This document shows positions 8,094 through 59,095 of a stretch of 64,000 nucleotides of DNA, piece after piece. The DNA is from Candidatus Hodarchaeaceae archaeon (GTDB taxonomy: Archaea; Hadarchaeota; Hadarchaeia; Hadarchaeales; Hadarchaeaceae). The notes below the pieces were generated by a model that worked only from the letters and a program-made list of their open reading frames with translations, ran no database searches and had not been told where the DNA came from. The stretch covers positions 4,883 through 68,882 of the forward strand of contig JASEJC010000001.1 in NCBI GenBank assembly GCA_030016755.1, written 5' to 3'. Within the stretch, counting starts at the first letter, position 1; every line of letters starts with the position of its first letter. Made by a program: the position numbers and the translations under genes.

Positions 8094-8498
8094 TCAGACG
8101 ACCACCAGCTTGGCCTGCTTGACCCCACGGAGGGCGCCCAACCGATCGACGAGCTTGCGGATCTTCTCAGCTGGACCCTTGACGATTAACGTCTCTAAGC
8201 AGTTTTTGGTGTCCACGTGTAAATGCTGGACTGCGCCTATGATACTCAAACTCGCGTGTTGGATATCCATGAGCGCATCAGTCAGTCCTCGAACATCGTG
8301 CTCATACATCACGAGGATGGCGCCAAGTTGTTCTCCCTTTAACTCGCTGCGCCACTTGTAACTCGCCAAGAAATCCCGAAGCGCGTCCCTCACCGCTTCT
8401 GAGCGGCTCGCGTAGCCCTGAGCTTTGAGCATGCGATCGAGCTCATCTAGCAAATCTTGGGGCAACGTCAAGCTCACCCGCGTTATCCTTTGCGACAT
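8094..8498 (-). CDS. nikR: Nickel-responsive regulator NikR (ribbon-helix-helix plus C-terminal metal-binding domain)
   Basis: RVSLTLPQDLLDELD...GYASRSEAVRDALR forms the RHH. The C-terminal domain contains HVHLD-like VQHLHVD. The start was set at MSQRITRVS (8498). Confidence 0.85.
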   Translation of the reverse strand: MSQRITRVSLTLPQDLLDELDRMLKAQGYASRSEAVRDALRDFLASYKWRSELKGEQLGAILVMYEHDVRGLTDALMDIQHASLSIIGAVQHLHVDTKNCLETLIVKGPAEKIRKLVDRLGALRGVKQAKLVVV

Positions 8499-14338: not shown

Positions 14339-14449
14339 GGGCTCCCAGGCACGACCTGATTGTCTTCTAGAGCCCATTTTTGGTGCCTTTTTTCGCCATT
14401 TTTCAGGGGCACCGAAAGTATTCCCCGAATGATACGGTCTGGTACGGTT

Positions 14450-19427: not shown

Positions 19428-20921
19428 TTAGATTATTTTCAATTTTTTCACAACCGAGGCACACGCGTTTACCAATGAGTTGCCCCACCGCGGCTTATCG
19501 TTAAACAACAAGACCTGCTCATAGCGTTCGCCGTGCTGCTTCAGAAAGCTGGAAAGGGACTCGGCAACTGCCCTAATCTGCTCAGGGTCCAGTTCTCTCG
19601 GCACCTGCAGCTGTCCAAGGGGGTAGACTTCCTCCAGCTCTTCCGGGACAACCCCAAAGGGGGGCACCAGCTTCACTAGGTGGGTCTTCTCAGGCTCCGG
19701 CAGCTCGGGGCGTTCCCCCTCAAACGCAGGCATGATTGCCAAGATAGGCAGTGGCGGTGGTTCATACCGCTCCTCAAGCCTACGCATATGGCGCAGGACC
19801 TCCGGGCGGCCGGCCGACTCCTCACCTGAGTAGAAAAAGGCGGATGTTTTTGTCACCGGATCGAAGCGCTCGATGAAGTCCCTGTAGCTCATGAGCCTCC
19901 TAAAGCCATCCAGCAGCCGAGGATGGGCCCGGCACCTGAGCTGGACATGTTGCCACAACCTCCCCTCAACAATCGCCTGCCGGATACGCCGAAGTTCCCC
20001 AAAGGTCACGTGAAGGTTATGCCTGGCCAAGAGCTTGACCTGCTCGTCCTCTGGTGCATCATACAACTTTTCCGGAGAACCCCCAGCGCAAACCGGACAC
20101 TCGCAGGGCAGGTACGAGAGTTCCTCAAGCTTAAGTGTTCCCTCCGAGGTGAGGTATCTCCCGTCCCGCGCGTATAGCACGTAAGCAGCGGAGTCGAAGA
20201 GATCGCACCCCATCGCCACCGCCAGCGCGAACATCATTGGGTGTCCAGCGCCGAAGAGGTGGGCGGGGCGCTGGGGTGGCAGGTTCTGCTTAGCCGCCAT
20301 CACCAGATCAACCAGCTCGGCGAACCGGTAGCCCTCCAACAACTCGACGGGACTGCCTATGGCATGCAGCTGGTAGTCGAGCTTTCCAACCTCGCGCGCG
20401 GACTCCGCCACCAAATCGCTGAAAAGCCCCCCTTGGACGGGGCCGCACCACATGACCTTTGGGTTGGAGCGGAGTTTGACTGCCTGCCGGGCACGCTCGA
20501 GCGTCACTTGAACGGTCTCCGCTGCCCGCTCCCTAGTGGTTTGGACGCCGGTCGGGATATCAAGTATCGTGGCGATGTCGGGGGCGATGGCGTCTTGATA
20601 TCGCACGATCTCCTCGGGCGAAACCTCCACGCCGCCGTAGCGGAGGATCTGGTACCCGCCAGAATCCGTGAAAATAGGTCCGTTGTAATCCAGTATCCCG
20701 TGAATTTTTCGCTTCTCAGCCTCCTCGCCGAAGCTGCGCAGGGTCAGATAGGCGTTCGTCATCATCAGCTCGGCACCGAACTCCCGCCTCATCTGCCTTG
20801 GTGATAGCAGAATGTCCGATGGGGCTATCACAGGCATGAGCGTCGGCGTGGTCACATCGCCGTGTGCGGTGGTAAGCTTGCCCACTCGACCCAAGCCGTC
20901 TCGGTGTAGAACCTCGAAGAT
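19428..20921 (-). CDS. tgtA: tRNA-guanine(15) transglycosylase (archaeosine TGT); short form without an evident PUA domain
   Basis: FEVLHRDGLGRVGKL...TPTLMPV, FTDSGGYQ and zinc motif CECPVC. The track ORF starts at TTG 20894. The conserved N-terminus extends in frame to ATC 20921 (see findings). Confidence 0.85.
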   Translation of the reverse strand: MFEVLHRDGLGRVGKLTTAHGDVTTPTLMPVIAPSDILLSPRQMRREFGAELMMTNAYLTLRSFGEEAEKRKIHGILDYNGPIFTDSGGYQILRYGGVEVSPEEIVRYQDAIAPDIATILDIPTGVQTTRERAAETVQVTLERARQAVKLRSNPKVMWCGPVQGGLFSDLVAESAREVGKLDYQLHAIGSPVELLEGYRFAELVDLVMAAKQNLPPQRPAHLFGAGHPMMFALAVAMGCDLFDSAAYVLYARDGRYLTSEGTLKLEELSYLPCECPVCAGGSPEKLYDAPEDEQVKLLARHNLHVTFGELRRIRQAIVEGRLWQHVQLRCRAHPRLLDGFRRLMSYRDFIERFDPVTKTSAFFYSGEESAGRPEVLRHMRRLEERYEPPPLPILAIMPAFEGERPELPEPEKTHLVKLVPPFGVVPEELEEVYPLGQLQVPRELDPEQIRAVAESLSSFLKQHGERYEQVLLFNDKPRWGNSLVNACASVVKKLKII

Positions 20922-20982
20922 GGAATCACCATATCAGACTGCATGAGAAACAACAAAAAGTTTTATTGCCAATGGAGGGGGG

Positions 20983-30100: not shown

Positions 30101-33100
30101 TTATTTATTCTTGCCCTTGGCGTTGCCTCGCCCCTGATTACCGCCACCTTGGTCTAGGTTTCCACCACGTTGCCCTGGCCCTGCCCGCCACCCTGATTCT
30201 CCTTGACCTTGGCCCGGAGATTGACCGCCCTGCTCGGGAGGCGTTTGGGGTGGGCCTTGTCCCTGCCCTTGGTTTCCACCCTGCCCCGGCGTCCCGCCCG
30301 ATTGGCCTGGCGGAACTTCTGGCCTGTTCCCGTGACCTTGGCCCTGTCCCTCACTAGGTTTGATAACCCGGATGGTGTCGCTTCCTCTGAACGGTGCGGA
30401 GCCCCACTTGCCGATTACCGTCAGCTCAACATTGTCACCAACGCTCACCAGCCCTTGCACGGCCGAGCGATCGAACTTAACCATCAGGTCTGGCACGCCG
30501 TCGCCGTCGTGGTCACCGATCTCGGTTGGCCAAGGCTCAGCGGATAGGATTCCCTCGAGGAAGATGTCGCCCTCGAGAGCCACGGTGCTCACGTCGATTT
30601 TCGCCACATCAAGGCCGCCCGGCAGCTCGATGTAGCAGGTTATCCAGCGGCCTTGGCTACGGAGGTTTAGAGTTTCAGGGTCGATGTCGATCATAGCGGG
30701 TATCAAGGTGGCACACCTGGCGTCGGCTTCCGGTGGCGGCCCCTCGACGTTTCCCGCCACATCGCAGGCTATAGAGTAGAACTCGTAGAAGCCGTGGCCT
30801 GCTGGTATGTCGAACGACCACTCGTAGGGCTCCTCGTTGTCGGCCCCGAACGATGTCCAATCGCCCCAAGTTGAATTGTCGAGCGAATGGCGGTAGTAAA
30901 GCTCGACGCTCGCGACGCCGCTCAGTCCATCCGATGCTGTGGCGGTAATTGCAAAAGGCGTCAAGGTCTGCCAGTAGGGCTCGATCGGATCGACCGAGGA
31001 GACCGGTGGAGTAGTGTCAACCCCGATCCTCTCATCGGGCTCCTCGGGTGCCTTCTCGACATTTCCGGCAACGTCTGCGGCGATCGAGTAGAGTTCGTAG
31101 TAACCATTGCCTTGGGACGGGTCGAACTGCCAAGCGTACGGGGACTGGTCATCAGCGGCGTAAAGCGTCCAGCCCGACCAGTTGAGGTTATCGGGCGAGT
31201 AACGGTAGTATAATCTGACATCCCTCATTCCGCTTGGTACGGCACCGTTCGGCGGGACTGGATCGTTTGCCGCGGCAGTCACTTCAATTGGAAGCATCGA
31301 AGCGTTGTGCCAGTGGGGTTCGATTGAGTTAAGGCTGGAAATGGGGGGCAGCGTGTCGACGCCCGCCTGTGCATCGGCACTCTCCGGGGCCGCCTCACGG
31401 TTTCCGGCTCGGTCCGCCGCAACCGAGTAGAACTCATAGAAGCCATCGCCAGCGGGGGCATCGAATGTCCAAGAGTAAGGTTCGGAATTGTCTATGTCGT
31501 AAAGCGCCCAGTCGCTCCATGTTGAGTTATCAGCGGAGTATCGGTACCACAGTTCAATGTTTTCGGCTCCACTCAGCGCGTCGGAAACCGTGGCGGTTAC
31601 CTGGAACGGGACCGTCCCCGCGTTCTGCCACAATGGGCTGACTGGGTCAACGGAAGATAATGGTGGCATAGTGTCAACGCCGCACATCGCGCCCGTAACC
31701 ACGGCCTTCACGGTTGGAGTGTACTTCCAGCCGCCATCCGTGTAGATGCTCTCGCCGTTCCACACCGCGTCCCATATGGTTCCAATCCCAGAGGCAACGG
31801 ACATCAATCCTCCTGAGGGTAACTCATACCTCCAGATCTTGCCATCTTGCCACACAAGGTACAGATATCCATCACCGGGTATCATTATCGAAACTATCGC
31901 CACGGGATACGGGTATCCGGGCGCTTGCACGGGTGTGACGCCGGAGATCGTCTTCAATCTGACCCAGCTATCGGAAGAAATCGTATACCTCCACAGTTCC
32001 AATGAATAATATGTCCCCTCAAGGAGCGCATAAATGTGATCCCGTCCATCCCACGTCAAGTCCGCTGCCAGCATGCTAGACGGGAACGATAGGGTATCCC
32101 ACCTGTTGCCCGAGATGGAGTACCGCAAGAAGATCCCACCGTTGTCCAAGGTGTAAATGTAATCGTCGCCAGTCCATACCAGTGCCCCCCTGTGAATCCC
32201 GATGGGAGTTGATGCCATGCTCTCCCAGCGGTTTGCTGAGATGGAATATCGCCAGAAGTCATGCTTGGGGTCGAAGTAGTAGCCTCTAAGGGCGTAGAGA
32301 TGCCCATCTGCCCAAATCAAGCTGTTGAAGCTCGCCCCTTCAGCCGGCATAGCGGTCAGGTGCGTCCACGTATTGTTGGAGATAGAGTAACTCCAGAGTT
32401 CGCTCCATGTGCGCATGTATACCTTGTCGCCCCCATCCCAAGCCAGCCCCCTCCAGCCCTCGGTGGATGCCGGAGCCGAGATGGAAGAGAACGTTCCATC
32501 AACATGAACTACTGAGACAGCCCCCCTCATCCCCTCCGCGTTGCCAGCGCGATCTGTTGCGACGCTTGTGAACTCGTAGTACCCGTCCCCCGCAGGAGAA
32601 TCGAACTTCCAAGTCCAAGGCTCGTTGTCATCGATGCCGAGCGACCGCCACTCGGACCAGCTTGAGTTATCTGGCGAGTAGCGGTAGAAAAGCTCAACGT
32701 TACCGACCCCTGAGAGGATATCCGACGCTTTTGCGGTCACCTCAAGCGGGAGGGTCTCATCATTTTGCCAATAAGGCGTTATTTGGTCGAGGTAAGATTC
32801 TGGAGGCGTGGTGTCCACACCAGCTCTAGCAGTCGCCTTCGGCCATGTTATGTGTGTGTCCACATTCACATCGCCGAATAGGTCAAACCATACTGTGTAA
32901 ATGTAGTCGGATGTATCAGATCCAGCAAACTCGCTTCTGATGTTCCCATCCACAGAGATGACCTCAATGTTACCAATTCGAACAGGTTCGGGTAACCATA
33001 TCCGACCTCTGAAACCTTCTAGCTCCTCCACCCATTCATCAACAGGCTCAGGAATCCAGTGCCGGCCCCATATTTCTTTTATTTCCATCCTTACCCTGAT

Positions 33101-36100
33101 ATCGACGTCCATCATGGTTACATCTATCCACGTGGGCCACCAACCATTCTCCCAATATCCGTAAAAGTTCTCGCCTTCGATCTCGATCCAAATCCCATAA
33201 GTTCCATTCGGGTTCCCGGGATTTCCTCCGTACTCATACTCTGGGGCCTCGACCTCATATGGTCCGCGCTCAAAAGAGGCCCCTGCCTCACCCCTAAGGC
33301 TTCCTATGAGCGTTCTCGATTCGACCACGGGCTGCTCGAGGTTCCCCGCCCTGTCAACGGCGAGGGTGCCGAACTCGTAGTAACCGTCCTCCTCGGGGGC
33401 GTCGAATGAGCACTCCCATGGCCACTCGTTATCAACACCGTAAAGCCTCCAGTCGTTCCAGCCCATGTTGTCATTTGAGTACCTGTAGAACAGCATGACC
33501 TCTTTAACGCCGCTCCGGTCGTCCGTCGCGGTTGCCGTGATAGTGAAAGGCAGCTCACTTTGCCAGTAGGGTGAGATCGTATCTACAGATGAGGTGGGCG
33601 GGACGGTATCGATGTAGACGTATGTGGCCCCCGACCAATCGCTCCAAGCCCCCGCCCCGTTCTGTGCGCGGACCTTGATGTAATAAATGCCATCAGCTAA
33701 AGTTGGATGATAGCTAGTATCCGTTGTGTAAAACGTGTCTTCCGACCAAGAGCGGTATACCTCATATTGATTCACCCCAGTATCAGGATCGCTTGCTACC
33801 CAGTACCAATGCGGTGAATTGTGGTTCGACCATTCTCTGCCGCAGTGATCCTCACCGACTATCGGGGTAGTTGGAGGCGTTGTATCCACGACTAAGGTGT
33901 AAGTGCCGTCACCGCTAATTTTACGAACCTCGATATAGTAATAACCCGACATCTCCGCAGTATAGATTATCTCCTCGCTCATGTGGCCTAGATGTGTGGA
34001 ACTCGCGATTAAGTTCTGTTCAGGATCGTATAGATGAAGGTCGAAATCACATTCGTGGTTTTCTTTTATGCCAATCGTTTTGCCCTTTTCTGCCCCAATT
34101 TGATAAAAGTCCTTTATATCCACCCCTCTTAAGCTGCCTGTGTATCTCCCCGAAAGTATCCTCCTTGGGCAATCAAGATTATCGCCTGCATCGCCTGCGA
34201 ATCCCGCATCAAATTGTTGTTCGATCCTAATCATCTCCGTGTCTAAATAACTTACCCCGGCGTATTTCGCTCTTGCTCTCAGGAGATAAGTGCCGCTTGG
34301 AGCATTTGCCGGCGCAAATATTGACTCCCTATAATACGCAGAACTGCCTGATCCGAGGGTAGTCCTATCAATAAGTCCGCCACTGATGGTCTGGCCATTA
34401 CTGTCCATGAACTCCAAGTATACATCAACTCGCTCTAAAGTGCGTGGTAAGTTATTACGCACATCGAAGAGAACGTAAAACTCATCGCCTGCCATAACTT
34501 CTGAAGGGGCCTCTAATAAATTAACGGTCAGCTCATTAATGACCCTCATCGGCATTTGTGGATCACCTAGCAAAACTGTTGTCAGTATCAGACCCCGATT
34601 ATTTGGATCACCGACCCCTTTCTCTTGTAAGTACTGCCGCTTTGCGGCATCTAAACACACCGCCGGTTGGTACCGATGTTCTGTAAAAAATTTCTGCCAA
34701 AAAAGAACATCAAGTTTTCCGCTTAAATCCTCATTAAGACCAGGTTCAAAAAGAACTCCGTGCACGTATGGTGCCTCTCTAGAGTTACCTACATAAGCGA
34801 TTGCAGTTTTTCCTTCGACAAAGGGACTGTATAGAGAATATTCACCTATCGTTGGTTTATCGTAATCGAAACTCGCAGAATAACATGCTACTACATACAT
34901 CAAAAAACCTTCTGAATTTGTAAGTTGAGCTACCGTGCATTCTCGGTAAAATGGAAAAAAGTCCTTTTTTCCTTTCTTTCCTTTTGCCGATAACTCAATT
35001 TCGTTTCCATGTGAAAACGAGTTAATGATTCCGGGTTCAAGTTGATTTATGGCATTCACTACGTTTATCTCTGTTAAATTCGCATCTTCGTCATAAAGTG
35101 TATGAGTGTCAACCTGCCCCCTTGCGAAATTAGCTATGGGGGCTTTAACTTCTGAACCATAATGGTCCCTAGTCCAACTTTGGTATATCCAGCCGCCGAG
35201 TAAAAGGAAATCCTCAACCGCCGGGCGATTAGCACCATACTCTGTGATCTTTTTAATAGATGGGGTTGGTACCCTGCTGACGTGGACCTCTGGTATCCAA
35301 TCTACTTCATCAAAAATTATCGATCCTAAAAAGGAAGCAAATTCACCGAAATTGCTATTGGTATTGTAATCGTCCCAAGTTCCATCCAAACAAGCATAAT
35401 AAGAATCTGCTGGCGCAAACGCTCGCCAAACCTCTCCGCGTTTCTTTGCTTGTTCTTCGAATATCCCATACAAGCGTACGTATCTTGTAGGAAGTTCCCA
35501 GTAATTGTCAAGCGCTGGTGGCTGCGGTGTCGCATCATAGGACGTTGGCCTATCGGCTGGATCCACGTCACCATTCAACAACACCCACTTGACATTTTTA
35601 TTAAGATAATACCATTTAATGCAATTTCTTATTTTTTCCGGTATATCTCTACCTTGGTAAGTATTTGTGATGCCGAGTGTGACATGGTCAAAAATCACGT
35701 TCCCGTCTTCGCTTTGATCTACCGTGACAACGTATGTTTCTAACCCCCAATCCTCTTTTTGCCGTACAAAGGCGTTCAAGTCCGCATCAACTAACTTTGG
35801 TCGCGTCACGATGAGGTAACCATCATCATTTGAGTTCTCTTGGGAGGCTAAATCATCATGTTTGATTTCAGACTCTAGACTATTATATGGAGGGTCTACT
35901 TCTACATACACCTTAATTTGTTCATAAAATACCATCTCCCCTACTGAAGGACGATATTGAATCGGGTAAACCCAGATGCCAATTACTAGCGACCCTCCTT
36001 CCCCACCCACCACCATAGCTTCCCCCAAACGTCCGGGATAGAATAAACCTGAATTATAAACGTTCCCATCCAGAAATAAAACCGTTGATTGTGATGTTTG

Positions 36101-36499
36101 TGCTGGTATAATGTAACTACCTTCAGTAAGTTGAAGTGTAATAGGGTCACTTGTTTCAAAACTAACGCTTACTATCTGTGGCAGCTCTTCTAACAAACAA
36201 CCGTCAGCCCAAGGAACTTTCAACAAATGCCCTTTGTAAGGCAACATCGGCTTGCCTTGAGCATTTAAGTAGGTACAATTTTCAATTCTCACAATGCTAT
36301 AATTTTCGTTTTCTTCGATTCGAGGAAAATCAAACGTAAATGTGTATTCAACTATTACGTTTTGGTTGTCTGATATAGTCTCGGCTGCCATGCTCACTTG
36401 AGAAGTGCCATTTTCTACGAGCGTGAAACCAGAAGTTAAAGGAATAAAACAAAGCAATAAAAAACCAAATATTGGTAGAATCCTAATAATCCATTTGAT
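30101..36499 (-). CDS. Giant secreted/surface protein: C25-type cysteine peptidase + CARDB-like + PPC domain + repeated Ig-like modules + Kelch-like propeller + Gly/Gln/Pro tail
   Basis: Uninterrupted 2118-aa track ORF (TTG 36457). The in-frame upstream codons encode a signal-peptide-like KWIIRILPIFGFLL beginning at ATC 36499. The domain evidence is listed under the separate features. Confidence 0.9.
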   Translation of the reverse strand: MKWIIRILPIFGFLLLCFIPLTSGFTLVENGTSQVSMAAETISDNQNVIVEYTFTFDFPRIEENENYSIVRIENCTYLNAQGKPMLPYKGHLLKVPWADGCLLEELPQIVSVSFETSDPITLQLTEGSYIIPAQTSQSTVLFLDGNVYNSGLFYPGRLGEAMVVGGEGGSLVIGIWVYPIQYRPSVGEMVFYEQIKVYVEVDPPYNSLESEIKHDDLASQENSNDDGYLIVTRPKLVDADLNAFVRQKEDWGLETYVVTVDQSEDGNVIFDHVTLGITNTYQGRDIPEKIRNCIKWYYLNKNVKWVLLNGDVDPADRPTSYDATPQPPALDNYWELPTRYVRLYGIFEEQAKKRGEVWRAFAPADSYYACLDGTWDDYNTNSNFGEFASFLGSIIFDEVDWIPEVHVSRVPTPSIKKITEYGANRPAVEDFLLLGGWIYQSWTRDHYGSEVKAPIANFARGQVDTHTLYDEDANLTEINVVNAINQLEPGIINSFSHGNEIELSAKGKKGKKDFFPFYRECTVAQLTNSEGFLMYVVACYSASFDYDKPTIGEYSLYSPFVEGKTAIAYVGNSREAPYVHGVLFEPGLNEDLSGKLDVLFWQKFFTEHRYQPAVCLDAAKRQYLQEKGVGDPNNRGLILTTVLLGDPQMPMRVINELTVNLLEAPSEVMAGDEFYVLFDVRNNLPRTLERVDVYLEFMDSNGQTISGGLIDRTTLGSGSSAYYRESIFAPANAPSGTYLLRARAKYAGVSYLDTEMIRIEQQFDAGFAGDAGDNLDCPRRILSGRYTGSLRGVDIKDFYQIGAEKGKTIGIKENHECDFDLHLYDPEQNLIASSTHLGHMSEEIIYTAEMSGYYYIEVRKISGDGTYTLVVDTTPPTTPIVGEDHCGREWSNHNSPHWYWVASDPDTGVNQYEVYRSWSEDTFYTTDTSYHPTLADGIYYIKVRAQNGAGAWSDWSGATYVYIDTVPPTSSVDTISPYWQSELPFTITATATDDRSGVKEVMLFYRYSNDNMGWNDWRLYGVDNEWPWECSFDAPEEDGYYEFGTLAVDRAGNLEQPVVESRTLIGSLRGEAGASFERGPYEVEAPEYEYGGNPGNPNGTYGIWIEIEGENFYGYWENGWWPTWIDVTMMDVDIRVRMEIKEIWGRHWIPEPVDEWVEELEGFRGRIWLPEPVRIGNIEVISVDGNIRSEFAGSDTSDYIYTVWFDLFGDVNVDTHITWPKATARAGVDTTPPESYLDQITPYWQNDETLPLEVTAKASDILSGVGNVELFYRYSPDNSSWSEWRSLGIDDNEPWTWKFDSPAGDGYYEFTSVATDRAGNAEGMRGAVSVVHVDGTFSSISAPASTEGWRGLAWDGGDKVYMRTWSELWSYSISNNTWTHLTAMPAEGASFNSLIWADGHLYALRGYYFDPKHDFWRYSISANRWESMASTPIGIHRGALVWTGDDYIYTLDNGGIFLRYSISGNRWDTLSFPSSMLAADLTWDGRDHIYALLEGTYYSLELWRYTISSDSWVRLKTISGVTPVQAPGYPYPVAIVSIMIPGDGYLYLVWQDGKIWRYELPSGGLMSVASGIGTIWDAVWNGESIYTDGGWKYTPTVKAVVTGAMCGVDTMPPLSSVDPVSPLWQNAGTVPFQVTATVSDALSGAENIELWYRYSADNSTWSDWALYDIDNSEPYSWTFDAPAGDGFYEFYSVAADRAGNREAAPESADAQAGVDTLPPISSLNSIEPHWHNASMLPIEVTAAANDPVPPNGAVPSGMRDVRLYYRYSPDNLNWSGWTLYAADDQSPYAWQFDPSQGNGYYELYSIAADVAGNVEKAPEEPDERIGVDTTPPVSSVDPIEPYWQTLTPFAITATASDGLSGVASVELYYRHSLDNSTWGDWTSFGADNEEPYEWSFDIPAGHGFYEFYSIACDVAGNVEGPPPEADARCATLIPAMIDIDPETLNLRSQGRWITCYIELPGGLDVAKIDVSTVALEGDIFLEGILSAEPWPTEIGDHDGDGVPDLMVKFDRSAVQGLVSVGDNVELTVIGKWGSAPFRGSDTIRVIKPSEGQGQGHGNRPEVPPGQSGGTPGQGGNQGQGQGPPQTPPEQGGQSPGQGQGESGWRAGPGQRGGNLDQGGGNQGRGNAKGKNK
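30104..30358 (-). repeat. C-terminal low-complexity Gly/Gln/Pro-rich tail ending GNAKGKNK
   Basis: aa ~2034-2118: GQGQGHGN...GQGGNQGQGQGPPQTPPEQGGQSPGQGQG. No C-terminal TM or PGF-type sorting signal. Confidence 0.8.
30713..31678 (-). repeat. Three tandem ~106-113-aa repeat modules (VDTxPPxSSV...SGV...YRYSxDNxxWxxW...PYxWxFDxPxGxGxYEFYSxAxDxAGNxE)
   Basis: aa 1594-1915 of the track ORF. Two further diverged copies lie at nt 33302-33613 and 32498-32821. Confidence 0.85.
31688..32461 (-). repeat. Kelch-like beta-propeller (about six blades) inserted between repeat modules of the giant protein
   Basis: Recurrent blade pattern: ...LWSYSISNNTW..., FWRYSISANRW, FLRYSISGNRW, LWRYTISSDSW, IWRYELPSGG. 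Each is preceded by a G-x-hydrophobic-Y strand. Confidence 0.7.
33887..34204 (-). other. Pre-peptidase C-terminal (PPC)-like domain of the giant protein
   Basis: GDAGDN...DIKDFYQIGAEKGKTIGI...DFDLHLYDPEQNLIASS...GYYYIEVRKISGDGTYTLVV follows the PPC pattern. Confidence 0.65.
34538..35830 (-). other. Peptidase C25 (gingipain/caspase-fold) catalytic region of the giant protein
   Basis: Domain opening YLIVTRPKLVDADLNAFVRQKEDWGLETYVV. Candidate catalytic His in NSFSHGNE (aa 483) and Cys in YVVACYSASF (aa 525). Confidence 0.7.
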
Positions 36500-36544
36500 A
36501 AAACCAACCCCTCGTTACTTTGAGTTATCTATCAACTGTAGTAT

Positions 36545-37276
36545 TTAGAACCTCCTCCTGCGCTGCCAAATTAGTAGCTGAACCCCGATGCTCATGAGCA
36601 CCACAAGTAAAATACACCAAAACCATGGAAAATAAGAAACCTCTCTAATTGGAGTGTCTGGCACCCTCCCGCGATTGTAAATCCATAGAGGTGTACCAGT
36701 TTCGCGGTTTAGGAGAATCAGTTCTTCGTTACGATCTTTTATTCCTCTGGCTACCACATAATCTCCGCCTGCTGAAATCGCAACTGGGGGTTCAAAGACA
36801 AGAAATATAGACCAGAGCGGAGTGTTATTTTCTTTAGAAAATGTGAGCACGTTAAAAAAGGTACTGGCAACGATGTATGTACCGTCCGAGGAGATACCCA
36901 CGTATGCTATATACTCGCTATAGGACCATAGGGGTTGATTGTCTTGGTTCGAAAAGAGGTAAAGGGCGTTGGAAGCGCCAGCTGCTATGTAATCCCCATT
37001 ATCTGAAATTGACATACAGCCCATAAGAGTTTCGTAACTCCACAGTGGTTGGTTATCCTCACGAGAGAACAAACAAAAGCCCTGAGAAACAGTAAAAGAT
37101 GCCACAATAAATCTGGCGTCTGATGATATCTCGAGGTGAGAATCATAGTGAACCCACGCGCTAGCATGTCCGCTCACCAATAACATAATAACAGCGGCAA
37201 TTGCTGTGATCAAAATTAAGGTGCTACGTAAAGGTGGCAGAGAAGTGTACTTTTCTTTATACATCTGAATCTCCAT
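36545..37276 (-). CDS. Membrane-anchored beta-propeller-repeat protein (PQQ/WD-like repeats) directly upstream of the giant gene
   Basis: N-terminal TM. Four repeats end in (E/Q)(D/E)NQPLWSY / NNTPLWSI / TGTPLWIY. C-terminal TM followed by RRRRF. Confidence 0.65.
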   Translation of the reverse strand: MEIQMYKEKYTSLPPLRSTLILITAIAAVIMLLVSGHASAWVHYDSHLEISSDARFIVASFTVSQGFCLFSREDNQPLWSYETLMGCMSISDNGDYIAAGASNALYLFSNQDNQPLWSYSEYIAYVGISSDGTYIVASTFFNVLTFSKENNTPLWSIFLVFEPPVAISAGGDYVVARGIKDRNEELILLNRETGTPLWIYNRGRVPDTPIREVSYFPWFWCILLVVLMSIGVQLLIWQRRRRF

Positions 37277-37528
37277 TTCTAACTTACCCTGGTGGCTTAA
37301 ACGCTTTAGATATCAATCTTGATTTTTTGGACTAACCCAGCGCTCATGCTGATTCTGGTCTCCGCCCAGTAGCGGGCCTGACGGGATTCCGACCCAGCGT
37401 GGGGAATTGGGTCTGCTTAATCTCGATACTCACCATAAGTGATAATCTAGCCTTGTATTTGTACTTCCTATGGGCGAAGGAGGTGCTGACGGTCATCTTC
37501 AGGTGCCCCTCTCATCTCCCGACGACTA

Positions 37529-40654: not shown

Positions 40655-41140
40655 TTAACCCATCGCGCCGATACTTGATAAAATCAAAATTGTTGCCAAA
40701 AGCCCCAAGATAGCGTAAAGCTCGACCATCACCGTGTAAAGCATGCTTTGCCCAAACACCTCTGGCCTCTTTGCGACAGCGCTGACGCCCGCTGTGGCGA
40801 CCTTTCCCTGAGAATATGCTGTAGCCCCTTGGAGAATAGCTGGAACGGCCGCTACTAGCACAACCATGCCCATCCAGGGGGCAATAGCAATCTTAGCAAC
40901 AACCGCTGGGTAAGCCACAAATATTATCAAGAAACCCGCCACGAAACCATAAATCCCCTGTGTGCCCGGAAGCACCTCTAGCACAAAAAGTTTTGAGAAC
41001 TTCTTTGGATCCTCCGCTGATACCGCCGCCGCTGCAACTCCGGTCATCCCGACGCCAACAGCTGAGAAAATCCCCGGAATGACCACTGCCAGCCCCGCCG
41101 CCAACGCTACCCAGACCTCTTCACCTGCCAGGCCACTCAC
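40655..41140 (-). CDS. atpK: A-type ATP synthase proteolipid subunit K; duplicated four-TM form
   Basis: 161 aa with two hairpins. Each has a Glu in the second helix (VLEVLPGTQGIYGF and VMVELYAILGL). Confidence 0.85.
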   Translation of the reverse strand: MSGLAGEEVWVALAAGLAVVIPGIFSAVGVGMTGVAAAAVSAEDPKKFSKLFVLEVLPGTQGIYGFVAGFLIIFVAYPAVVAKIAIAPWMGMVVLVAAVPAILQGATAYSQGKVATAGVSAVAKRPEVFGQSMLYTVMVELYAILGLLATILILSSIGAMG

Positions 41141-43595: not shown

Positions 43596-45383
43596 TTGGG
43601 GAAGATAGTTCGAATCACCGGGCCCGTAGTCATCGCTGACAAGATGAAGGGCTCGGAGATGTACGAGCTCGTCAGGGTGGGGGAGGAGGGCCTGATGGGG
43701 GAGATAATCGGCCTTACCGAGGACCGCGCGACCATCCAGGTTTACGAGGAAACCTCTGGCGTAAAACCGGGCGAGAAGGTCGAGGGTACCGGAAAACCTC
43801 TTTCGGTCGAGCTCGGCCCTGGGCTGATAGGCGCAATTTACGACGGTACACAGCGGCCGCTCACGGTCATCCGGGCGAAAATTGGTGACATGATAAAGCG
43901 TGGGGTCTCCGCTCACGCCCTACCGCGCGATAAGAAATGGGAGTTCGTCCCCAAGGTCAAGAAAGGCGCGGATGTGGTCGAGGGCGATATTTTAGGGACG
44001 GTCAAGGAAAGCAAGCTCGTCGAACATCGAATTTTGGTACCTCCGGGCATCAACGGGAAAGTTCTAGAAGTTGCGGATGGGGCACACAAAGTCGAAGATG
44101 CCATCGCCACGATCGAAACGGCTGATGGCAAGCGGGATATCCCGATGATGCAAATTTGGCCCGTGCGACGAGCGCGACCGTTTAAGGAAAAGTTTGATCC
44201 AAATGAGCCGCTTTTGACTGGACAGCGGGTTGCCGACACTTTCTTTCCGATCGCGAAGGGGGGAACTGTTGCAATTCCTGGAGGGTTCGGATCTGGAAAG
44301 ACGGTTTTCCTCCAGCAGGTCGCGAAGTGGGCTGACGCCGACATCGTCACCTATGTCGGTGCTGGCGAACGCGGCAATGAGATGTGTGATGTGCTCGTGC
44401 ACTTCCCGCAGCTGAAGGATCCGCGAACAGGCGAGTCGCTGATGGAACGGACCACGCTCATCGCCAACACCTCCAACATGCCCGTCGCTGCCCGAGAAGC
44501 GGGAGTCTACACTGGAATCACCATCGCCGAGTACTTCCGCGACATGGGCTACGATGTGGCGCTCATGGCCGACTCGACCTCGCGGTGGGCCGAGGCTATG
44601 CGCGAGATATCCGGGCGGCTGGAGGAGATGCCAGGAGAAGAGGGCTTCCCAGCATACCTCGCCTCGCGGCTGGCCGAGTTCTACGAGCGGGCTGGTCGGG
44701 TGCGAACCCTGGGCAGCGATGAGCGCTTCGGCTCCGTGACCGTGCTAGGTGCTGTCTCGCCTCCTGGCGGCGACCTCTCAGAGCCTGTCTGCCAAAATAC
44801 GCTCCGCATAGTCAAGGTCTTCTGGGCGCTTGACACGGGTTTGGCAGACCGCCGCCACTTCCCGGCCATCCACTGGCTGACCAGCTACTCGCTGTACGTC
44901 GACAACGTGCGGGAGTGGTGGAAACAAAAACTTGGGGAGGATTGGAAATCTCTACGTGACGAGGCTATCGCCATGCTCCAGAAAGAGGCGGAACTCGAGG
45001 AAATCGTGAAGCTTGTGGGCCCTGATGCCCTCCCCGAACCCGAGCGAGCCGTGCTAGAGGCAGCCCGGATGCTGCGCGAGGACTTCCTCCAGCAGTTCGC
45101 CTTCCACGAGGTCGATACCTATTGCCCTGTGGAAAAACAACTCGGGATGCTCAGGCTCGTGCTGGATTTCTACCGCAATTCTGTTGAAGCCGCAAAGCGG
45201 GGCATCCCTGTGGCGGAAATCAAAAAACTGCCCATCAAGGATACCATCGCCAGCATGAAGCGGCTACCATCTGAAAAATTCGCAAAGGAGCAAGGAAAGA
45301 TGGAAAAGCAACTCATGGAGCAATTTGAGGCGTTGTTGAAGACGAGAAAAGCGCCGGTGGAGGAGGGTAAGCGTGAAGGGTGA
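43596..45383 (+). CDS. atpA: A-type ATP synthase catalytic subunit A
   Basis: [11 protein letters not shown], Walker A GGFGSGKT, and SRWAEALREISGR-like [25 protein letters not shown] 43596 was chosen; the upstream part of the track ORF is antisense to atpH and Pro-rich. Confidence 0.95.
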
Positions 45384-46764
45384 AGCTGTGAAGAGCCGCG
45401 AGTACCTGACCGTCGCAGAGGTTTCGGGGCCGCTCATGATCGTCGAGGGCGTCAGCGGCGTGGCCTACGGGGAGGTGGTGGAGGTCATCACGCCGGACGG
45501 GGAGGTCAAGCACGGGCAGGTGCTGGATGCCTACGAGGACCGCGCAGTGGTACAGGTCTACGAGGGCACGAGGGGAATTGACACCTTCAAGACTCGGGTC
45601 AGGTTCACTGGGGAGACGATCAAGTTCGGCGTCGGGCTTGAGCTGCTCGGGAGGATATTCAGCGGGCGGGGGGCGCCTATAGATGGCGGCCCAAAGCCGA
45701 TTTTCGAGGACGAGTGGGATGTACATGGGGCCCCGATAAACCCGGCCGCGCGCGAGTACCCGAGCGAGTTCATCCAGACAGGCATTTCGGTCATCGACGG
45801 CATGAACACCCTCGTGCGGGGCCAAAAGTTACCCATCTTCTCGGGCGCGGGGCTGCCGCACAACGAGCTCGCCGCCCAAATCGCCAGACAAGCCAAGGTT
45901 TTAGGCGAGGAGGAAAAGTTCGCCGTAGTGTTTTGCGGGATGGGGATAACGCATGAAGAGGCGGCGTTTTTCATTAAGGATTTCGAGCAAACCGGTGCAC
46001 TCGAGCGCGCGGCGGTTTTTCTAAACTTGGCTAACGACCCTGCCATCGAGCGCATCCTGACCCCGAGGCTAGCCCTGACCGCTGCCGAGTACTTCGCGTT
46101 CACTCAGGGGATGCATGTGCTGGTGATCCTCACGGACTTGACCAACTACTGCGAGGCCCTCCGGGAGATTTCGGCGGCGCGCAGCGAGGTCCCTGGCAGG
46201 CGTGGGTACCCCGGCTATCTTTACACAGATCTTGCGACTATGTATGAACGCGCTGGTAGGATAAAGGGCAAAAAGGGCTCGGTTACTCAGATGCCAATCC
46301 TGACCATGCCCGGCGACGATATCACTCACCCGATTCCTGATCTAACAGGCTATATCACGGAAGGACAGCTTTGTATGGACCGTGAGCTCCACCGGAAGGG
46401 GGTCTACCCTCCGATCAACCCTCTGCCATCGCTCTCTAGGCTGATGAAGGATGGGATAGGCCCAGGCCGCACGCGGGAGGATCACATGGACAACTCGAAC
46501 CAGCTCTACGCGGCCTACGCTGAGGGGAAGGACCTCCGGGCGCTCGTGGCAGTCGTTGGGGGAGAGGCGCTCACCGAGAGGGACCGGCGCTACCTCGACT
46601 TCGCTGACCGCTTCGAGCAGGAGTTCATAAACCAGGGGCGGGACGAGGACCGGTCAATCGAGACCACCCTTGACCTAGGGTGGGAACTCCTGCGCACGCT
46701 TCCGGAGGCCGAGCTCAAGCGCATCGATCCAAAATTCATAGAGAAGTACCTGCGCCCGAAGTAG
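45373..46764 (+). CDS. atpB: A-type ATP synthase subunit B
   Basis: [19 protein letters not shown], degenerate P-loop SGAGLPHNE and [18 protein letters not shown] start overlaps the atpA stop. Confidence 0.95.
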
Positions 46765-50809: not shown

Positions 50810-50902
50810 TGGTGGGGTCGCCGAGATTCGAACTCGGGTCACTGGCTTTTTCGCCCGAGGGCCCCGAAGCCAATAGGATAGACCAGGCTACCCCACGACC
50901 CC
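50810..50902 (-). tRNA. tRNA-Pro(CGG) with a 15-nt canonical (37/38) intron and an encoded CCA
   Basis: Hand-folded. Acceptor GGGGTCG/CGACCCC, anticodon stem TTGGC/GCCAG, loop TTCGGG-[GCCCTCGGGCGAAAA]-A. T arm CCGAG-TTCGAAT-CTCGG, then ACCA. Confidence 0.85.
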
Positions 50903-57336: not shown

Positions 57337-57638
57337 TCCAGGTTCACCTCCGCGCGTGCGTTGTGGTTACTTTTCATGGTTCTCATCACGTCGCCAATCA
57401 GCCTTTTGAACCCGTACATGACCACGGCAATGCCGATGCTTAAAATAAGGAATCCTGAGGCGATAACCGACGTCGGAACCGATACCGAATAATAGCTTCG
57501 AAAGCTCATTTGAAATATAGATGCCAGATAATCCGCCCCGATGATGCACACGAGGAGCCCAGACACCAAGATGAAGGCCGCGAATACTGCGTCGAGGTAA
57601 TAGAGGGGAGTTGGTTGCCGGCTTGACGCATCTTCCAT
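57333..57638 (-). CDS. Small two-TM membrane protein
   Basis: The start was set at MEDASSRQ (57638) after GGAGG. The upstream part of the track ORF overlaps the Zn-ribbon ORF. Confidence 0.45.
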   Translation of the reverse strand: MEDASSRQPTPLYYLDAVFAAFILVSGLLVCIIGADYLASIFQMSFRSYYSVSVPTSVIASGFLILSIGIAVVMYGFKRLIGDVMRTMKSNHNARAEVNLE

Positions 57639-57670
57639 CTTTCTGCCTCCCTGTTGCCCACTTAGGCCCC

Positions 57671-58123: not shown

Positions 58124-59095
58124 ATGGAGGCCCTGCGTAAGGCTTATCTAATTCCGCACGGAAGAGGGCTTAGGGGTGATGCCCTGCGAAAGCTCTGTCT
58201 GCTAGCGACCTCCATTGGAATCCTTATTGCGCTCTGTCTACTCGCTCCCTCCTCCGCCCAGGTCCTGGGACGGAAAACCGAAATCGAGGTCCGTGCGGAT
58301 GGTTCGGCTATCTGGGTAATTGAAAATAAATTTCCCCTTACCACCCTCGATAATGAAATCCAACTCACAATCTCTTGGTTCGAGAATTCCTTGAAAAACA
58401 GGGTCGACAGCGCGGAAGTTATAGCAGGCAGGAGTATGCAAATTAAAGACTTTACAGCGAGTGGACCCGTCCAGTATCCAGATCACAAGAAGGTGAGATA
58501 TCGATTTGAGTGGACCAACTTTGCGGAGGTTGAGGAGACCCGGCTTAGGATAGGGGATGTCTTCGAGCCTGGATTCTTGGACCTCCCGACTACCGCCGAT
58601 TCCTTAACCATCCGATACCCTGCGGGCTACAGGATTTCGGAGGTGATACCAACCCCGAGCGAAACTACCGAGCGTGAGCTCACCTGGAATGGCCCGCGAA
58701 GTTTCGGCTTCGGCAAACCAAGCATAACACTGAAGCCTATCCCGTCCCCCTGGCCAATCCTAGCCCTTGCCGCCATAATCATCTGTGGTCTAGTCGCCGG
58801 ATGGTTCCTCTGGTTCAAAAAGCTGTTTAGGCCTATGGCCAAGGCGGCGAAGAAGCCGGAAGTTCCCCCGGCTGAGAAAATCCTAAAAAGCGATGTCGAG
58901 AGGGCGGTCGAGATACTGAAAGAGGCCGGCGGGAAGATGTACCAGACCGAGCTCGTCCGGCGCTTGGACTTCTCGAAATCGAAGGGGAGCGCGCTGCTGA
59001 GCTCCATGGAGCGGGCCGGGACCATTCAAAGAACCAGGATGGGGAGGAAGAACCTCATCACGCTGAAGCCAAAGGAAGCTCCACCTGAAGAGTGA
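58124..59095 (+). CDS. Single-pass membrane protein with an extracytoplasmic domain and a cytoplasmic winged-helix DNA-binding domain
   Basis: Signal/TM (LCLLATSIGILIALCLLAPSSA), a second TM (WPILALAAIIICGLVAGWFLWF), then MYQTELVRRLDFSKSKGSALLSSMERAGTIQR. The track start is TTG 58088. Confidence 0.6.
   Translation: MEALRKAYLIPHGRGLRGDALRKLCLLATSIGILIALCLLAPSSAQVLGRKTEIEVRADGSAIWVIENKFPLTTLDNEIQLTISWFENSLKNRVDSAEVIAGRSMQIKDFTASGPVQYPDHKKVRYRFEWTNFAEVEETRLRIGDVFEPGFLDLPTTADSLTIRYPAGYRISEVIPTPSETTERELTWNGPRSFGFGKPSITLKPIPSPWPILALAAIIICGLVAGWFLWFKKLFRPMAKAAKKPEVPPAEKILKSDVERAVEILKEAGGKMYQTELVRRLDFSKSKGSALLSSMERAGTIQRTRMGRKNLITLKPKEAPPEE

What the first reader, a model, noticed from the sequence alone, without database searches (positions are those of the whole stretch)
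36455..36517. The giant gene's signal peptide is recovered only with an ATC start codon
In frame, upstream of the track start (TTG 36457), the codons after the TAA at 36515-36517 read R G V G F I(ATC, 36497-36499) K W I I R I L P I F G F L L.... Starting at ATC gives (M)KWIIRILPIFGFLLLCFIPLTSG, a textbook n-region/h-region/c-region signal peptide. The TTG start removes the basic n-region and half of the h-region. GAGGGG lies 7-8 nt upstream of the ATC. No ATG, GTG or TTG exists in frame between the stop and 36457. The same situation occurs at tgtA, which is reported separately.
Basis: partly seen in the sequence, partly recalled or inferred. Interest (0 to 1): 0.55.

Follow-up and report, generated by a model that had tools for sequence, protein, structure and literature searches.

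The report
ATC start codon for giant protease
A 2,132-residue secreted gingipain-like protease gene in an uncultured Hadesarchaeon most likely starts at an ATC codon behind a strong ribosome-binding site; this corrects the annotation and suggests these archaea tolerate near-cognate start codons more than usual.

Summary
After TAA 36517-15 (minus strand), the first in-frame ATG/GTG/TTG is TTG 36457. That TTG lies in the middle of a hydrophobic stretch. ATC 36499 gives (M)KWIIRILPIFGFLLLCFIPLTSG, and GAGGGG lies 8 nt upstream.

The gene encodes a C25 (gingipain-family) peptidase. 84% of its distant relatives begin with a comparable hydrophobic leader.

The sequence AGGGGTTGGTT+tt+ATC matches the assumed archaeal anti-Shine-Dalgarno tail. 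It sits in the same register as three other near-cognate start candidates in this window:
- tgtA, ATC 20921. NCBI already annotates this start, and the aligned codon is ATC/ATT/ATA in 22 of 26 Hadesarchaea.
- An HD-domain gene, CTG 8097. The aligned codon is ATG/GTG/TTG in most relatives.
- A DUF7345 gene, CTG 58184.

Only 0.3% of internal ATH/CTG codons have so strong a Shine-Dalgarno sequence at that spacing.

No orthologue test is possible. The giant gene lies in a strain-specific island (30109-37362) that two related genomes lack, and its first ~700 codons have foreign-like composition.

Verdict: ATC initiation is the best-supported reading (about 0.65) but is not proven. The word "only" is overstated, because the ATT codons at 36490 and 36487 would also restore a leader. 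This is a new member of a known kind and is moderately interesting.

The parts
36515..36517 (-). In-frame TAA that closes the reading frame upstream of the giant ORF.
36502..36513 (-). Shine-Dalgarno element. The core is GAGGGG (36513-36508). The extended match AGGGGTTGGTT (36512-36502) pairs with the assumed archaeal 16S tail GAUCACCUCCU. It is followed by 2 nt (tt) and then the ATC.
   Evidence: Duplex energy is -9.5 kcal/mol, the best in the first 150 codons of the ORF. The register score is 13.1 at spacer 2. That puts it in the top tier of the window's start sites, in the same register as tgtA, the HD gene and the DUF7345 gene. Internal ATH/CTG codons reach such a score 0.3% of the time.
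36497..36499 (-). ATC, the proposed near-cognate start codon. It would be decoded as Met by initiator tRNA; that step is inferred.
   Evidence: ATC starts have been shown experimentally in bacteria (PMC2830850; bioRxiv 10.1101/063800).
36428..36499 (-). Predicted Sec-type signal peptide of 24 codons, (M)KWIIRILPIFGFLLLCFIPLTSG. The likely cleavage site is after TSG.
   Evidence: The hydrophobicity is at the family median. Distant C25 homologues P0004, P0006 and P0008 start with MKELKLIISSLLFLLCASLSVCG, MKLRLLLVFFGLMIFSLTNG and similar leaders.
36455..36457 (-). TTG, the first canonical in-frame start and the start used by the annotation track. It lies inside the h-region and has no SD upstream.
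   Evidence: The register score is only 6.4.
30101..36499 (-). The giant ORF, 2132 codons plus the stop. Its modules are a signal peptide, a C25 propeptide-like region, the Peptidase_C25 domain, PPC, repeated Ig-like (Big_7/Big_13) modules, a Kelch propeller and a G/Q/P-rich tail.
   Evidence: Pfam gives Peptidase_C25 at E = 5e-31. His497 and Cys539 (ATC numbering) are invariant in 8 homologues. The 6.4-kb frame is uninterrupted.
30109..37362 (.). Strain-specific island carrying the giant gene and the upstream PQQ-like gene. It lies between DUF61/atpD and a small ORF next to SecD.
   Evidence: The sister MAG GCA_030018345.1 (L116) is 98-99% identical on both sides. It has 1.5 kb with a 389-aa PQQ-like gene in place of the island. 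L118 has nothing at that site.
33800..37400 (.). Low-GC part of the island (39-47% GC, against 55-60% in the flanks). It covers the first ~700 codons of the giant gene and the PQQ-like gene.
   Evidence: GC3 is 0.33-0.39 for codons 1-600, against 0.61-0.72 for codons 1000-2000 and 0.63-0.72 for host genes.
36545..37276 (-). Upstream PQQ/beta-propeller-like gene. It has its own ATG and leader, and it ends in a C-terminal hydrophobic stretch followed by RRRRF. Its stop lies 45 nt before the ATC, so the giant ORF is not a continuation of it.
20919..20930 (-). tgtA start region, GGTGAT tcc ATC. This is the precedent for an ATC start in the same genome.
   Evidence: NCBI protein MDI6642464.1 (497 aa, MFEVLHRDG...) starts at this ATC.
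8095..8106 (-). HD-domain gene start region, GGTGGT cgt CTG. This is the precedent for a CTG start in the same genome.
   Evidence: In 24 relatives the start is TTG, GTG, ATG or CTG. The 3-nt spacer is an in-frame stop in 5 of them.
58173..58186 (+). DUF7345/DUF7343 gene start region, GGGGTGAT gcc CTG. This is a third near-cognate candidate. It yields (M)RKLCLLATSIGILIALCLLAPSSAQ.

Best explanation
The giant gene (30101-36499, minus strand) encodes a secreted or cell-surface C25 (gingipain-family) cysteine peptidase. Its translation most likely begins at ATC 36499, not at the annotated TTG 36457.

Proposed mechanism:
1. The 3' tail of 16S rRNA pairs with AGGGGTTGGTT (36512-36502).
2. That pairing places the ATC, 2 nt further on, in the P site.
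3. Initiator Met-tRNA reads the ATC with a third-position mismatch.
4. The product starts MKWIIRILPIFGFLLLCFIPLTSG, a Sec-type signal peptide. It targets the 2132-residue precursor for export and is probably cut after TSG.

Initiation at a near-cognate codon is expected to be inefficient, so it would also keep output of this very large protease low.

Shown: the sequence facts, the family assignment, the SD strength and register, and the use of ATH/CTG at start positions of other genes in this genome and lineage.
Inferred: that ribosomes actually start at this ATC, that Met is inserted, that the leader is cleaved, and the expression-level consequence.
For: 1. No canonical start lies between TAA 36517 and TTG 36457. 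The TTG lies inside a continuous 15-residue hydrophobic run.
2. The protein is a Peptidase_C25 enzyme (E = 5e-31) with PPC, Big_7, Big_13 and Kelch modules, which is an extracellular architecture. An invariant His and Cys are present.
3. Of 139 complete relatives of the N-terminal 230 residues, 84% have an N-terminal hydrophobic segment with KD12 >= 2.2 (median 2.83). The giant protein scores 2.76 from ATC and 1.68 from TTG, which is the bottom 7%. The closer examples all start with classic leaders.
4. SD evidence. The best anti-SD duplex in the first 150 codons precedes the ATC, at -9.5 kcal/mol against -8.5 to -15 at many of the assigned canonical starts. The register score is 13.1 at spacer 2. 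ATT 36490, ATT 36487 and TTG 36457 score 5.7-6.4. Only 0.3% of internal ATH/CTG codons reach 13.
5. Chance of an open, equally hydrophobic extension is 1.4-4%.
6. Precedent in the same genome, tgtA. The conserved IFEVLHRDG lies upstream of the first canonical start. The aligned codon is ATC, ATT or ATA in 22 of 26 Hadesarchaea, ATG or GTG in 3, and GTC in 1. It follows a nucleotide-conserved GGTGAT/GGTGGT and a variable 3-nt spacer, which is an in-frame stop in L002 and L019. NCBI annotates the window's tgtA from this ATC.
7. Precedent in the same genome, the HD gene. CTG 8097 aligns with TTG, GTG or ATG in 15 of 24 relatives and with CTG in 4. The other 5 start one codon downstream at GTG or ATG.
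8. All four near-cognate candidates share the identical SD register.
9. Random assembly error is unlikely, because the 6.4-kb frame and the neighbouring genes are intact.
10. ATC initiation with N-terminal Met has been shown experimentally in bacteria (PMC2830850; 10.1101/063800).
Against: - No orthologue exists, so the start cannot be aligned. Two related genomes lack the gene altogether.
- There are no expression, proteomic or read-level data.
- In E. coli, near-cognate codons initiate at only 1-2% of the AUG level. Reviews of archaeal translation list only AUG, GUG and UUG as start codons.
- In-frame ATT 36490, ATT 36487, ATT 36481 and ATA 36472 would also give a full or partial leader.
- An out-of-frame ATG (36494-92) would give MIIRILP... 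if one base were removed, so a single indel or a base-call error (ATG read as ATC) cannot be excluded at this one site.
- The start region lies in foreign-composition DNA. The gene could be a recent acquisition with a damaged start.
- The 16S tail used for SD scoring is the generic archaeal one. It was not read from this genome.
- The giant protein was not found in the protein collection, although neighbouring proteins of the same NCBI contig are there. How, or whether, the public record annotates it is unknown.
Confidence: 0.65

Rival explanations
1. Translation starts at another in-frame near-cognate codon just downstream: ATT 36490, ATT 36487, ATT 36481 or ATA 36472. This still yields a working leader, for example MIRILPIFGFLLLCFIPLTSG.
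For: These codons exist in frame, and most of the h-region would be kept. ATT and ATA serve at the tgtA start position in other Hadesarchaea.
Against: They lie 17-35 nt from the only SD. Canonical starts with a good SD cluster at register spacers 1-5 (mode 3), and all supported near-cognate starts sit at spacer 2. Their own upstream scores are 5.7 for ATT 36490 and ATT 36487.
Confidence: 0.1
2. The sequence at the start is wrong or recently mutated. Either the true codon is ATG (a C/G base-call error), or a 1-nt indel has put ATG 36494-92 out of frame, the ancestral start then being ATG ATT ATT AGG = MIIR...
For: An out-of-frame ATG lies 5 nt after the ATC. In the DUF7345 gene of this window, a real or apparent 1-nt deletion relative to orthologues has put the ancestral ATG out of frame.
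Against: - ATG 36494 would lie 13 nt from the SD core, outside the range seen in this genome.
- Random indel errors would break long ORFs, yet a 6.4-kb frame is intact.
- The near-cognate starts of tgtA and the HD gene recur in many independent assemblies, so no error needs to be invoked.
Confidence: 0.1
3. The annotated TTG 36457, or ATG 36391, is the real start. The protein then has no functional Sec leader and is either intracellular or exported by some other route.
For: TTG is a common start in this genome: atpA, atpE and the M28 peptidase use it. Gene callers choose it here.
Against: - No SD precedes either codon.
- TTG cuts a continuous hydrophobic stretch.
- The resulting N-terminus falls in the bottom 7% of the family for hydrophobicity.
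- A C25 peptidase with Ig-like, PPC and Kelch modules is an extracellular architecture. That last link rests on my own knowledge.
Confidence: 0.08
4. The gene is a recently acquired and poorly expressed or decaying accessory gene. Its original start was lost, and the leader-like sequence is a relic that is no longer translated.
For: The gene lies in a strain-specific island that relatives lack. The 5' 2 kb has a foreign-like GC3 of 0.33-0.39. The protein was not found in the public protein collection.
Against: - A 2137-codon frame without a stop would not persist by chance.
- The catalytic His and Cys are kept.
- A strong host-type SD sits at exactly the working register before the ATC.
Confidence: 0.07

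Closest known systems
ATC-initiated dnaA of Deinococcus (N-terminal proteomics, PMC2830850)
   Same: A conserved or functional N-terminus is recovered only if an ATC is the start. Met is the first residue. Standard gene callers missed it.
   Different: That case is bacterial and was proven by TMPP-labelled N-terminal peptides. It is conserved among orthologues. Here the organism is an archaeon, the gene has no orthologues, and the evidence is the SD, the signal-peptide logic and precedents in the same genome.
AUU-initiated infC and pcnB of E. coli (as summarised in bioRxiv 10.1101/063800)
   Same: A near-cognate AUH start behind an SD, giving low initiation efficiency.
   Different: The infC start is part of an IF3 autoregulatory loop (my own knowledge). 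No such feedback is suggested here. Archaea use aIF1/aIF2 rather than IF3 for start-codon scrutiny.
tgtA of the same genome (NCBI MDI6642464.1) and of other Hadesarchaea
   Same: An ATC (or ATT/ATA) start 2 nt beyond the full SD register, with no usable canonical start. It is the same organism, so the same ribosomes would have to accept it.
   Different: The tgtA start is supported by 25 related loci and is already in the public annotation. The giant gene's start has no comparative support and is not annotated that way.
Gingipain-type C25 peptidases with a signal peptide and N-terminal propeptide (Pfam PF01364/PF08126)
   Same: The order signal peptide, propeptide-like region, C25 catalytic domain and Ig-like domains is shared. 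An invariant His and Cys are present.
   Different: - Identity to any relative is at most 41%.
- No solved structure is detectable by sequence.
- No Por/T9SS C-terminal tail was found, unlike P0006.
- The protein is about 2.1 thousand residues long, with a Kelch propeller and many Ig-like repeats.
- The host is an archaeon.

Membership tests
Genes initiated at a near-cognate (non-ATG/GTG/TTG) codon | No in-frame canonical start preserves the required N-terminus. | tested here: met
   There are 19 codons without ATG, GTG or TTG between TAA 36517 and TTG 36457. The TTG lies inside the h-region.
Genes initiated at a near-cognate (non-ATG/GTG/TTG) codon | A ribosome-binding site at working distance from the proposed codon. 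| tested here: met
   AGGGGTTGGTT + 2 nt + ATC. Duplex energy -9.5 kcal/mol and register score 13.1 at spacer 2. The background rate at internal ATH/CTG codons is 0.3%. The 16S tail was assumed, not read from this genome.
Genes initiated at a near-cognate (non-ATG/GTG/TTG) codon | The aligned codon is the start codon in orthologues. | not testable with these tools
   No orthologue was found among 5.8e9 and 1.84e9 proteins or in 185,579 genomes. The sister genomes lack the gene. The feature is met for tgtA and the HD gene in the same genome.
Genes initiated at a near-cognate (non-ATG/GTG/TTG) codon | Experimentally observed N-terminus or initiation site. | not testable with these tools
   The organism is an uncultured MAG, and no proteomic or ribosome-profiling data are available here.
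Sec-type (class 1) signal peptide | A basic n-region, an h-region of 10-15 or more hydrophobic residues, and a c-region with small residues at -3 and -1. | tested here: met
   The leader is M-KWIIR / ILPIFGFLLLCFIPL / TSG|F. KD12 is 2.76, close to the family median of 2.83. These are rule-based checks only; no SignalP-type predictor was available. There is no lipobox and no twin-arginine motif.
Sec-type (class 1) signal peptide | Cleavage and export of the protein. | not testable with these tools
   This needs experiment.
Peptidase family C25 (gingipain-like) | Significant match to the catalytic-domain profile. | tested here: met
   PF01364 at E = 5e-31 and 108.7 bits against a cut-off of 23. 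The match covers residues 228-650 and profile positions 1-373 of 374.
Peptidase family C25 (gingipain-like) | Catalytic His/Cys dyad. | tested here: met
   His497 (SFSHGNE) and Cys539 (VVACYSAS) are invariant in the 8-sequence alignment. Equating them with the catalytic dyad rests on my knowledge of the family, not on a structure.
Peptidase family C25 (gingipain-like) | N-terminal C25 propeptide domain. | tested here: inconclusive
   PF08126 scores 20.8 bits against a cut-off of 22. However, 244 proteins match residues ~10-220 at E <= 1e-3, and most of those inspected are N-terminal regions of large secreted proteins.
Start-proximal programmed frameshift from the out-of-frame ATG 36494 | An upstream out-of-frame start plus a shift-prone site leading into the main frame. 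| tested here: not met
   The ATG 36494 frame reads ATG GAT TAT TAG, with no known slippery motif, and the ATG lies 13 nt from the SD. The idea was considered because tgtA and the DUF7345 gene also have nearby out-of-frame ATGs.

The most novel reading that the evidence does not exclude
Hadesarchaea may select start codons less strictly than other archaea and bacteria studied so far. When a strong SD sits at one fixed register, ATC, ATT, ATA and CTG would serve as start codons in a few percent of genes.

This 64-kb window has four candidates among roughly 55 genes: tgtA, the HD-domain gene, the DUF7345 gene and the giant protease. The tgtA start has been kept as ATH across the lineage.

Losing a canonical start by point mutation or indel would then be nearly neutral. 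Such starts could also serve to throttle expression of particular genes, including this very large secreted protease.
Probability: 0.4. Interest if true: 0.65.

Novelty: new member of a known kind. Interest (0 to 1): 0.45.

Why it matters
Practical consequences:
- Gene callers limited to ATG/GTG/TTG cut the export signal off this protease. It would then be misclassified as intracellular.
- The same problem affects many database tgtA entries. Many Hadesarchaea orthologues are called from an internal MGRVGKL or MPVI.
- Secreted C25 peptidases are among the enzymes used to infer protein-degrading lifestyles of uncultured subsurface archaea (my own knowledge). Their localisation calls therefore matter.

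Conceptual consequences:
- Reviews of archaeal initiation list only AUG, GUG and UUG as start codons.
- Switches from a canonical start to CUG or AUU occur at about 1e-5 to 4e-4 per start in prokaryotes generally.
- Two clear cases (tgtA and the HD gene) plus two candidates in a single 64-kb window, two of them recurring across relatives, suggest that start-codon stringency differs in this lineage. That can be tested by a genome-wide comparative survey and by in-vitro initiation assays.

Tried and rejected
1. Orthologue comparison of the N-terminus. I tried three routes:
   - a word-indexed search of 5.8e9 proteins, where the best hit had 41% identity and lacked the propeptide;
   - a scan of GTDB species genomes, which found nothing;
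   - exhaustive phmmer against 1.84e9 representatives, where the best hit had 35% identity.
   No orthologue exists. Comparing N-terminal lengths with distant relatives was uninformative. The median offset was +6.5 residues from ATC, which corresponds to -7.5 from TTG.

2. Resequencing through a second assembly. The sister MAG is 98-99% identical in the flanks but carries a different 1.5-kb segment in place of the island. A third genome has nothing at that site.

3. Exact look-ups. The window's own atpD protein and P0279 were not on record in the contig index.

4. Homopolymer or indel assembly errors as a general explanation. I considered this because tgtA, the DUF7345 gene and the giant gene all have an ATG one base out of frame near the start. 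I rejected it as a general cause for three reasons:
   - long ORFs are intact;
   - the tgtA arrangement recurs in more than 15 independent assemblies;
   - at tgtA, the T before GGTGAT fits a transcription-initiator dinucleotide better than a start codon. This last point is my inference.
   It is retained only as a single-site rival.

5. A census of all GGTGAT/GGTGGT+3 sites in 257 kb of Hadesarchaea DNA. Outside the tgtA and HD orthologues there were too few sites for statistics.

6. A comparison of start codons for 20 genes across up to 5 related contigs. It found no further near-cognate starts, so the phenomenon is gene-specific rather than pervasive.

7. The odd tRNA reported by ARAGORN. 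I checked whether it was an unusual initiator tRNA. It reads as an intron-containing tRNA-Pro(CGG).

8. A sequence search of solved structures returned no hit. I did not run a structure prediction, because it would not bear on the start codon.

9. The sigma-70 promoter scanner was not used, because the organism is an archaeon.
Full report
THE OBSERVATION

On the minus strand the frame opens after TAA 36517-36515. It reads R G V G F I(ATC 36499-97) K W I I R I L P I F G F L, then L(TTG 36457-55) L C F I P L T S G F T L V E N G .... None of the 19 codons before the TTG is ATG, GTG or TTG. GAGGGG lies at 36513-36508, 8 nt before the ATC. The upstream gene (36545-37276) ends with its own TAA 45 nt before the ATC and is a complete membrane-anchored protein, so the giant ORF does not continue from it. 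This includes the remark about tgtA, which reads TGA, Y G D S I(ATC 20921) F E V L H R D G L(TTG 20894).

WHAT THE GENE IS

The window comes from a Hadesarchaeon. It carries aEF-2, the A-type ATPase, archaeal SecD/F and tgtA, and the best tgtA relatives are Hadesarchaea/Hadarchaeales MAGs. It corresponds to a 69,622-nt NCBI MAG contig with locus tags QMD95_.

The ORF has 2132 codons from the ATC. It contains a Peptidase_C25 domain (E = 5e-31), a sub-threshold C25 propeptide match, PPC, Big_7/Big_13 repeats and Kelch repeats. A His and a Cys are invariant across eight homologues. This is the architecture of a secreted or surface protease.

Distant relatives begin with classic leaders. An exhaustive search with the first 230 residues gave 139 complete relatives. 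Of these, 84% have an N-terminal 12-residue hydrophobic window of KD >= 2.2, with a median of 2.83. The giant protein scores 2.76 if it starts at the ATC and 1.68 if it starts at the TTG, which is the bottom 7%.

IS IT MORE THAN CHANCE?

An open and equally hydrophobic 14-codon extension arises in 1.4% of off-frame windows of the same AT-rich island, and in 4% of shuffles.

The ribosome-binding site adds separate support. Against the generic archaeal 16S tail GAUCACCUCCU, the best duplex in the first 150 codons of the ORF lies directly before the ATC. Its energy is -9.5 kcal/mol, comparable with many of the assigned canonical starts in the window (about -8.5 to -15).

In an ungapped register analysis, AGGGGTTGGTT matches the full SD consensus AGGAGGTGATC with three wobble pairs and one mismatch. 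It scores 13.1 and leaves 2 nt before the ATC. ATT 36490, ATT 36487 and TTG 36457 score 5.7-6.4. Canonical starts with a good SD cluster at spacers 1-5, with a mode of 3. Only 4 of 1319 internal in-frame ATH/CTG codons (0.3%) have a score of 13 or more at spacer 2-3.

PRECEDENT IN THE SAME GENOME AND LINEAGE

This was the most informative line of evidence.

tgtA. I retrieved 25 Hadesarchaea tgtA loci and aligned them at the conserved I-F-x-I-L-x-R-D-G motif.
- The codon aligned with the window's ATC is ATC in 12 sequences, ATT in 7 and ATA in 3.
- It is ATG in 2, GTG in 1 and GTC in 1.
- In most loci it is preceded by GGTGAT or GGTGGT, which is conserved at the nucleotide level including the would-be third codon positions.
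- Between the two lies a 3-nt spacer that varies freely. In L002 (tga) and L019 (taa) the spacer is an in-frame stop.
- Of the 16 sequences with this architecture, 10 have no canonical in-frame start at all upstream.
- Many database orthologues were called from an internal MGRVGKL or MPVI, so gene callers had missed the start.
- NCBI's own annotation of the window's tgtA, MDI6642464.1, is 497 aa and begins MFEVLHRDG, so it already uses this ATC.

HD-domain gene (7516-8097). The start region reads GGTGGT cgt CTG. In 24 metagenome relatives the aligned codon is TTG (6), GTG (7), ATG (2) or CTG (4). Five more start one codon downstream, with GTG or ATG. The spacer is an in-frame stop in 5 of them. 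The aligned position is therefore the start codon, and it is CTG in the window.

DUF7345 gene. The start region reads GGGGTGAT gcc CTG (58184) and gives (M)RKLCLLATSIGILIALCLLAPSSAQ. Orthologues have ATG CCG CTG CGA at this point. The window lacks one base, so the ATG is out of frame. The upstream ATG chosen by NCBI lies beyond a conserved promoter-like box.

All four near-cognate candidates share exactly the same SD register, and their SD scores of 11-13 are in the top tier of the window. A comparison of 20 other genes across up to five related contigs showed no further cases, so the usage is gene-specific.

WHY NO ORTHOLOGUE TEST IS POSSIBLE

A sister MAG, GCA_030018345.1, is 97.9-99.2% identical on both sides. 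It replaces window 30109-37362 with 1.5 kb encoding a 389-aa PQQ-like protein. A third genome has nothing at that site. The giant gene is therefore a strain-specific accessory gene in a variable surface-protein island.

Its composition is mosaic. GC3 is 0.33-0.39 over codons 1-600, covering the leader, the propeptide and the catalytic domain. It is 0.61-0.72 over codons 1000-2000, like host genes. The start region thus lies in DNA of foreign composition, yet it carries an SD in the host's working register.

MECHANISM AND RIVALS

The best-supported reading (about 0.65) is SD-anchored initiation at ATC 36499 by initiator Met-tRNA. This gives a Sec-type leader that exports the protease. Output is probably low, because near-cognate codons initiate poorly: 1-2% of the AUG level in E. 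coli, with Met at the N-terminus. ATC initiation has been shown by N-terminal proteomics for Deinococcus dnaA.

The rivals are:
- a start at ATT 36490 or 36487 (0.10), which would be too far from the SD;
- a base-call error or single-base indel involving the out-of-frame ATG 36494 (0.10), which would be 13 nt from the SD core, in a genome whose long ORFs are intact;
- the annotated TTG, or ATG 36391, with no leader (0.08), neither of which has an SD, and the TTG cuts the h-region;
- a decaying accessory gene (0.07), which is hard to square with a 2137-codon open frame, a retained catalytic dyad and a well-placed SD.

COMPARISON WITH WHAT IS KNOWN, AND NOVELTY

Near-cognate starts are a known kind. 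ATT, ATC, ATA and CTG are allowed initiators in translation table 11 (my own knowledge). Proven cases include infC, pcnB and Deinococcus dnaA. The tgtA ATC start of this very genome is already in the public annotation. The giant-gene start is therefore a new member of a known kind.

What is less expected is the density and lineage-wide recurrence. Reviews of archaeal initiation list only AUG, GUG and UUG. Ribosome profiling in Haloferax set its near-cognate sites aside. Switches from canonical starts to CUG or AUU are about 1e-5 to 4e-4 per start across prokaryotes. I found nothing in the literature on Hadesarchaea start codons.

The most novel reading not excluded is relaxed, SD-dependent start-codon selection in Hadesarchaea (probability about 0.4).

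VERDICT

Interest is 0.45.

Noticed in passing
window 19428-20930 (-); loci L001-L024, L075: The tgtA start is ATC, ATT or ATA in 22 of 26 Hadesarchaea. It follows a nucleotide-conserved GGTGAT/GGTGGT and a free 3-nt spacer, which is an in-frame stop in L002 and L019. A conserved AAAACTTTTTG promoter-like box lies ~30-40 nt upstream. Many database orthologues are truncated to MGRVGKL or MPVI. NCBI annotates the window's copy from the ATC (MDI6642464.1).
   Followed up: yes
window 7516-8106 (-); loci L082-L106: The HD-domain (YfbR-like) gene most likely starts at CTG 8097 (GGTGGT cgt CTG). Relatives have TTG, GTG, ATG or CTG at the same codon. The public annotation starts at TTG 8079 and so loses the conserved KLNEFL.
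   Followed up: yes
window 58124-59095 (+); loci L110, L112, L113, L115: In the DUF7345/DUF7343 membrane-regulator gene, orthologues start ATG CCG CTG CGA. The window lacks one base (ATG CC- CTG), which puts that ATG out of frame. GGGGTGAT gcc CTG 58184 would give a textbook leader. NCBI's start, ATG 58124, lies upstream of a conserved AAGGCTTATC promoter-like box.
   Followed up: partly
window 30109-37362; L116 11192-12698; L118 ~700-1000: There is a variable island between DUF61/atpD and SecD. The window carries the giant protease plus a 243-aa PQQ-like gene. The 98-99% identical sister MAG carries a single 389-aa PQQ-like gene. A third genome carries nothing.
   Followed up: yes
window 30101-36499 (-): The giant ORF has a mosaic composition. 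GC3 is 0.33-0.39 for codons 1-600 and 0.61-0.72 for codons 1000-2000. This suggests that a foreign protease module was joined to host-like Ig/Kelch repeats.
   Followed up: partly
window 40655-41140 (-) and 12044-12940 (-): Two further possible near-cognate starts have strong SDs. One is atpK, CTG 41131 (GGGGGTGA gtggc CTG), where the annotated GTG 41140 abuts the SD. The other is a NuoB-like gene, ATA 12931 (GAGGTGA gcgag ATA), where GTG 12940 lies inside the SD.
   Followed up: no
window 45373-46764 (+); L116 167-3181 (-): The sister genome's ATPase B subunit is 1004 aa. It contains an in-frame insert of about 541 aa with LAGLIDADG-like motifs, which looks like an intein, at the position equivalent to window ~46150. 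The window's atpB (463 aa) has no such insert.
   Followed up: partly
window 50813-50902 (-): ARAGORN left a tRNA unassigned ('anticodon cg'). By eye it reads as tRNA-Pro(CGG) with an intron after position 37. Rfam's tRNA model scores 45.7 bits.
   Followed up: partly
window 12952-14412 (-): A TnpB-family (IS200/IS605-type RNA-guided nuclease) ORF sits between the NuoD-like and NuoB-like hydrogenase/complex-I-type genes.
   Followed up: no
window 55462-57336 (-), 56000-58000: A second low-GC patch (~45% GC) coincides with a secreted beta-propeller protein (PF09826). It may be another acquired surface-protein gene.
   Followed up: no
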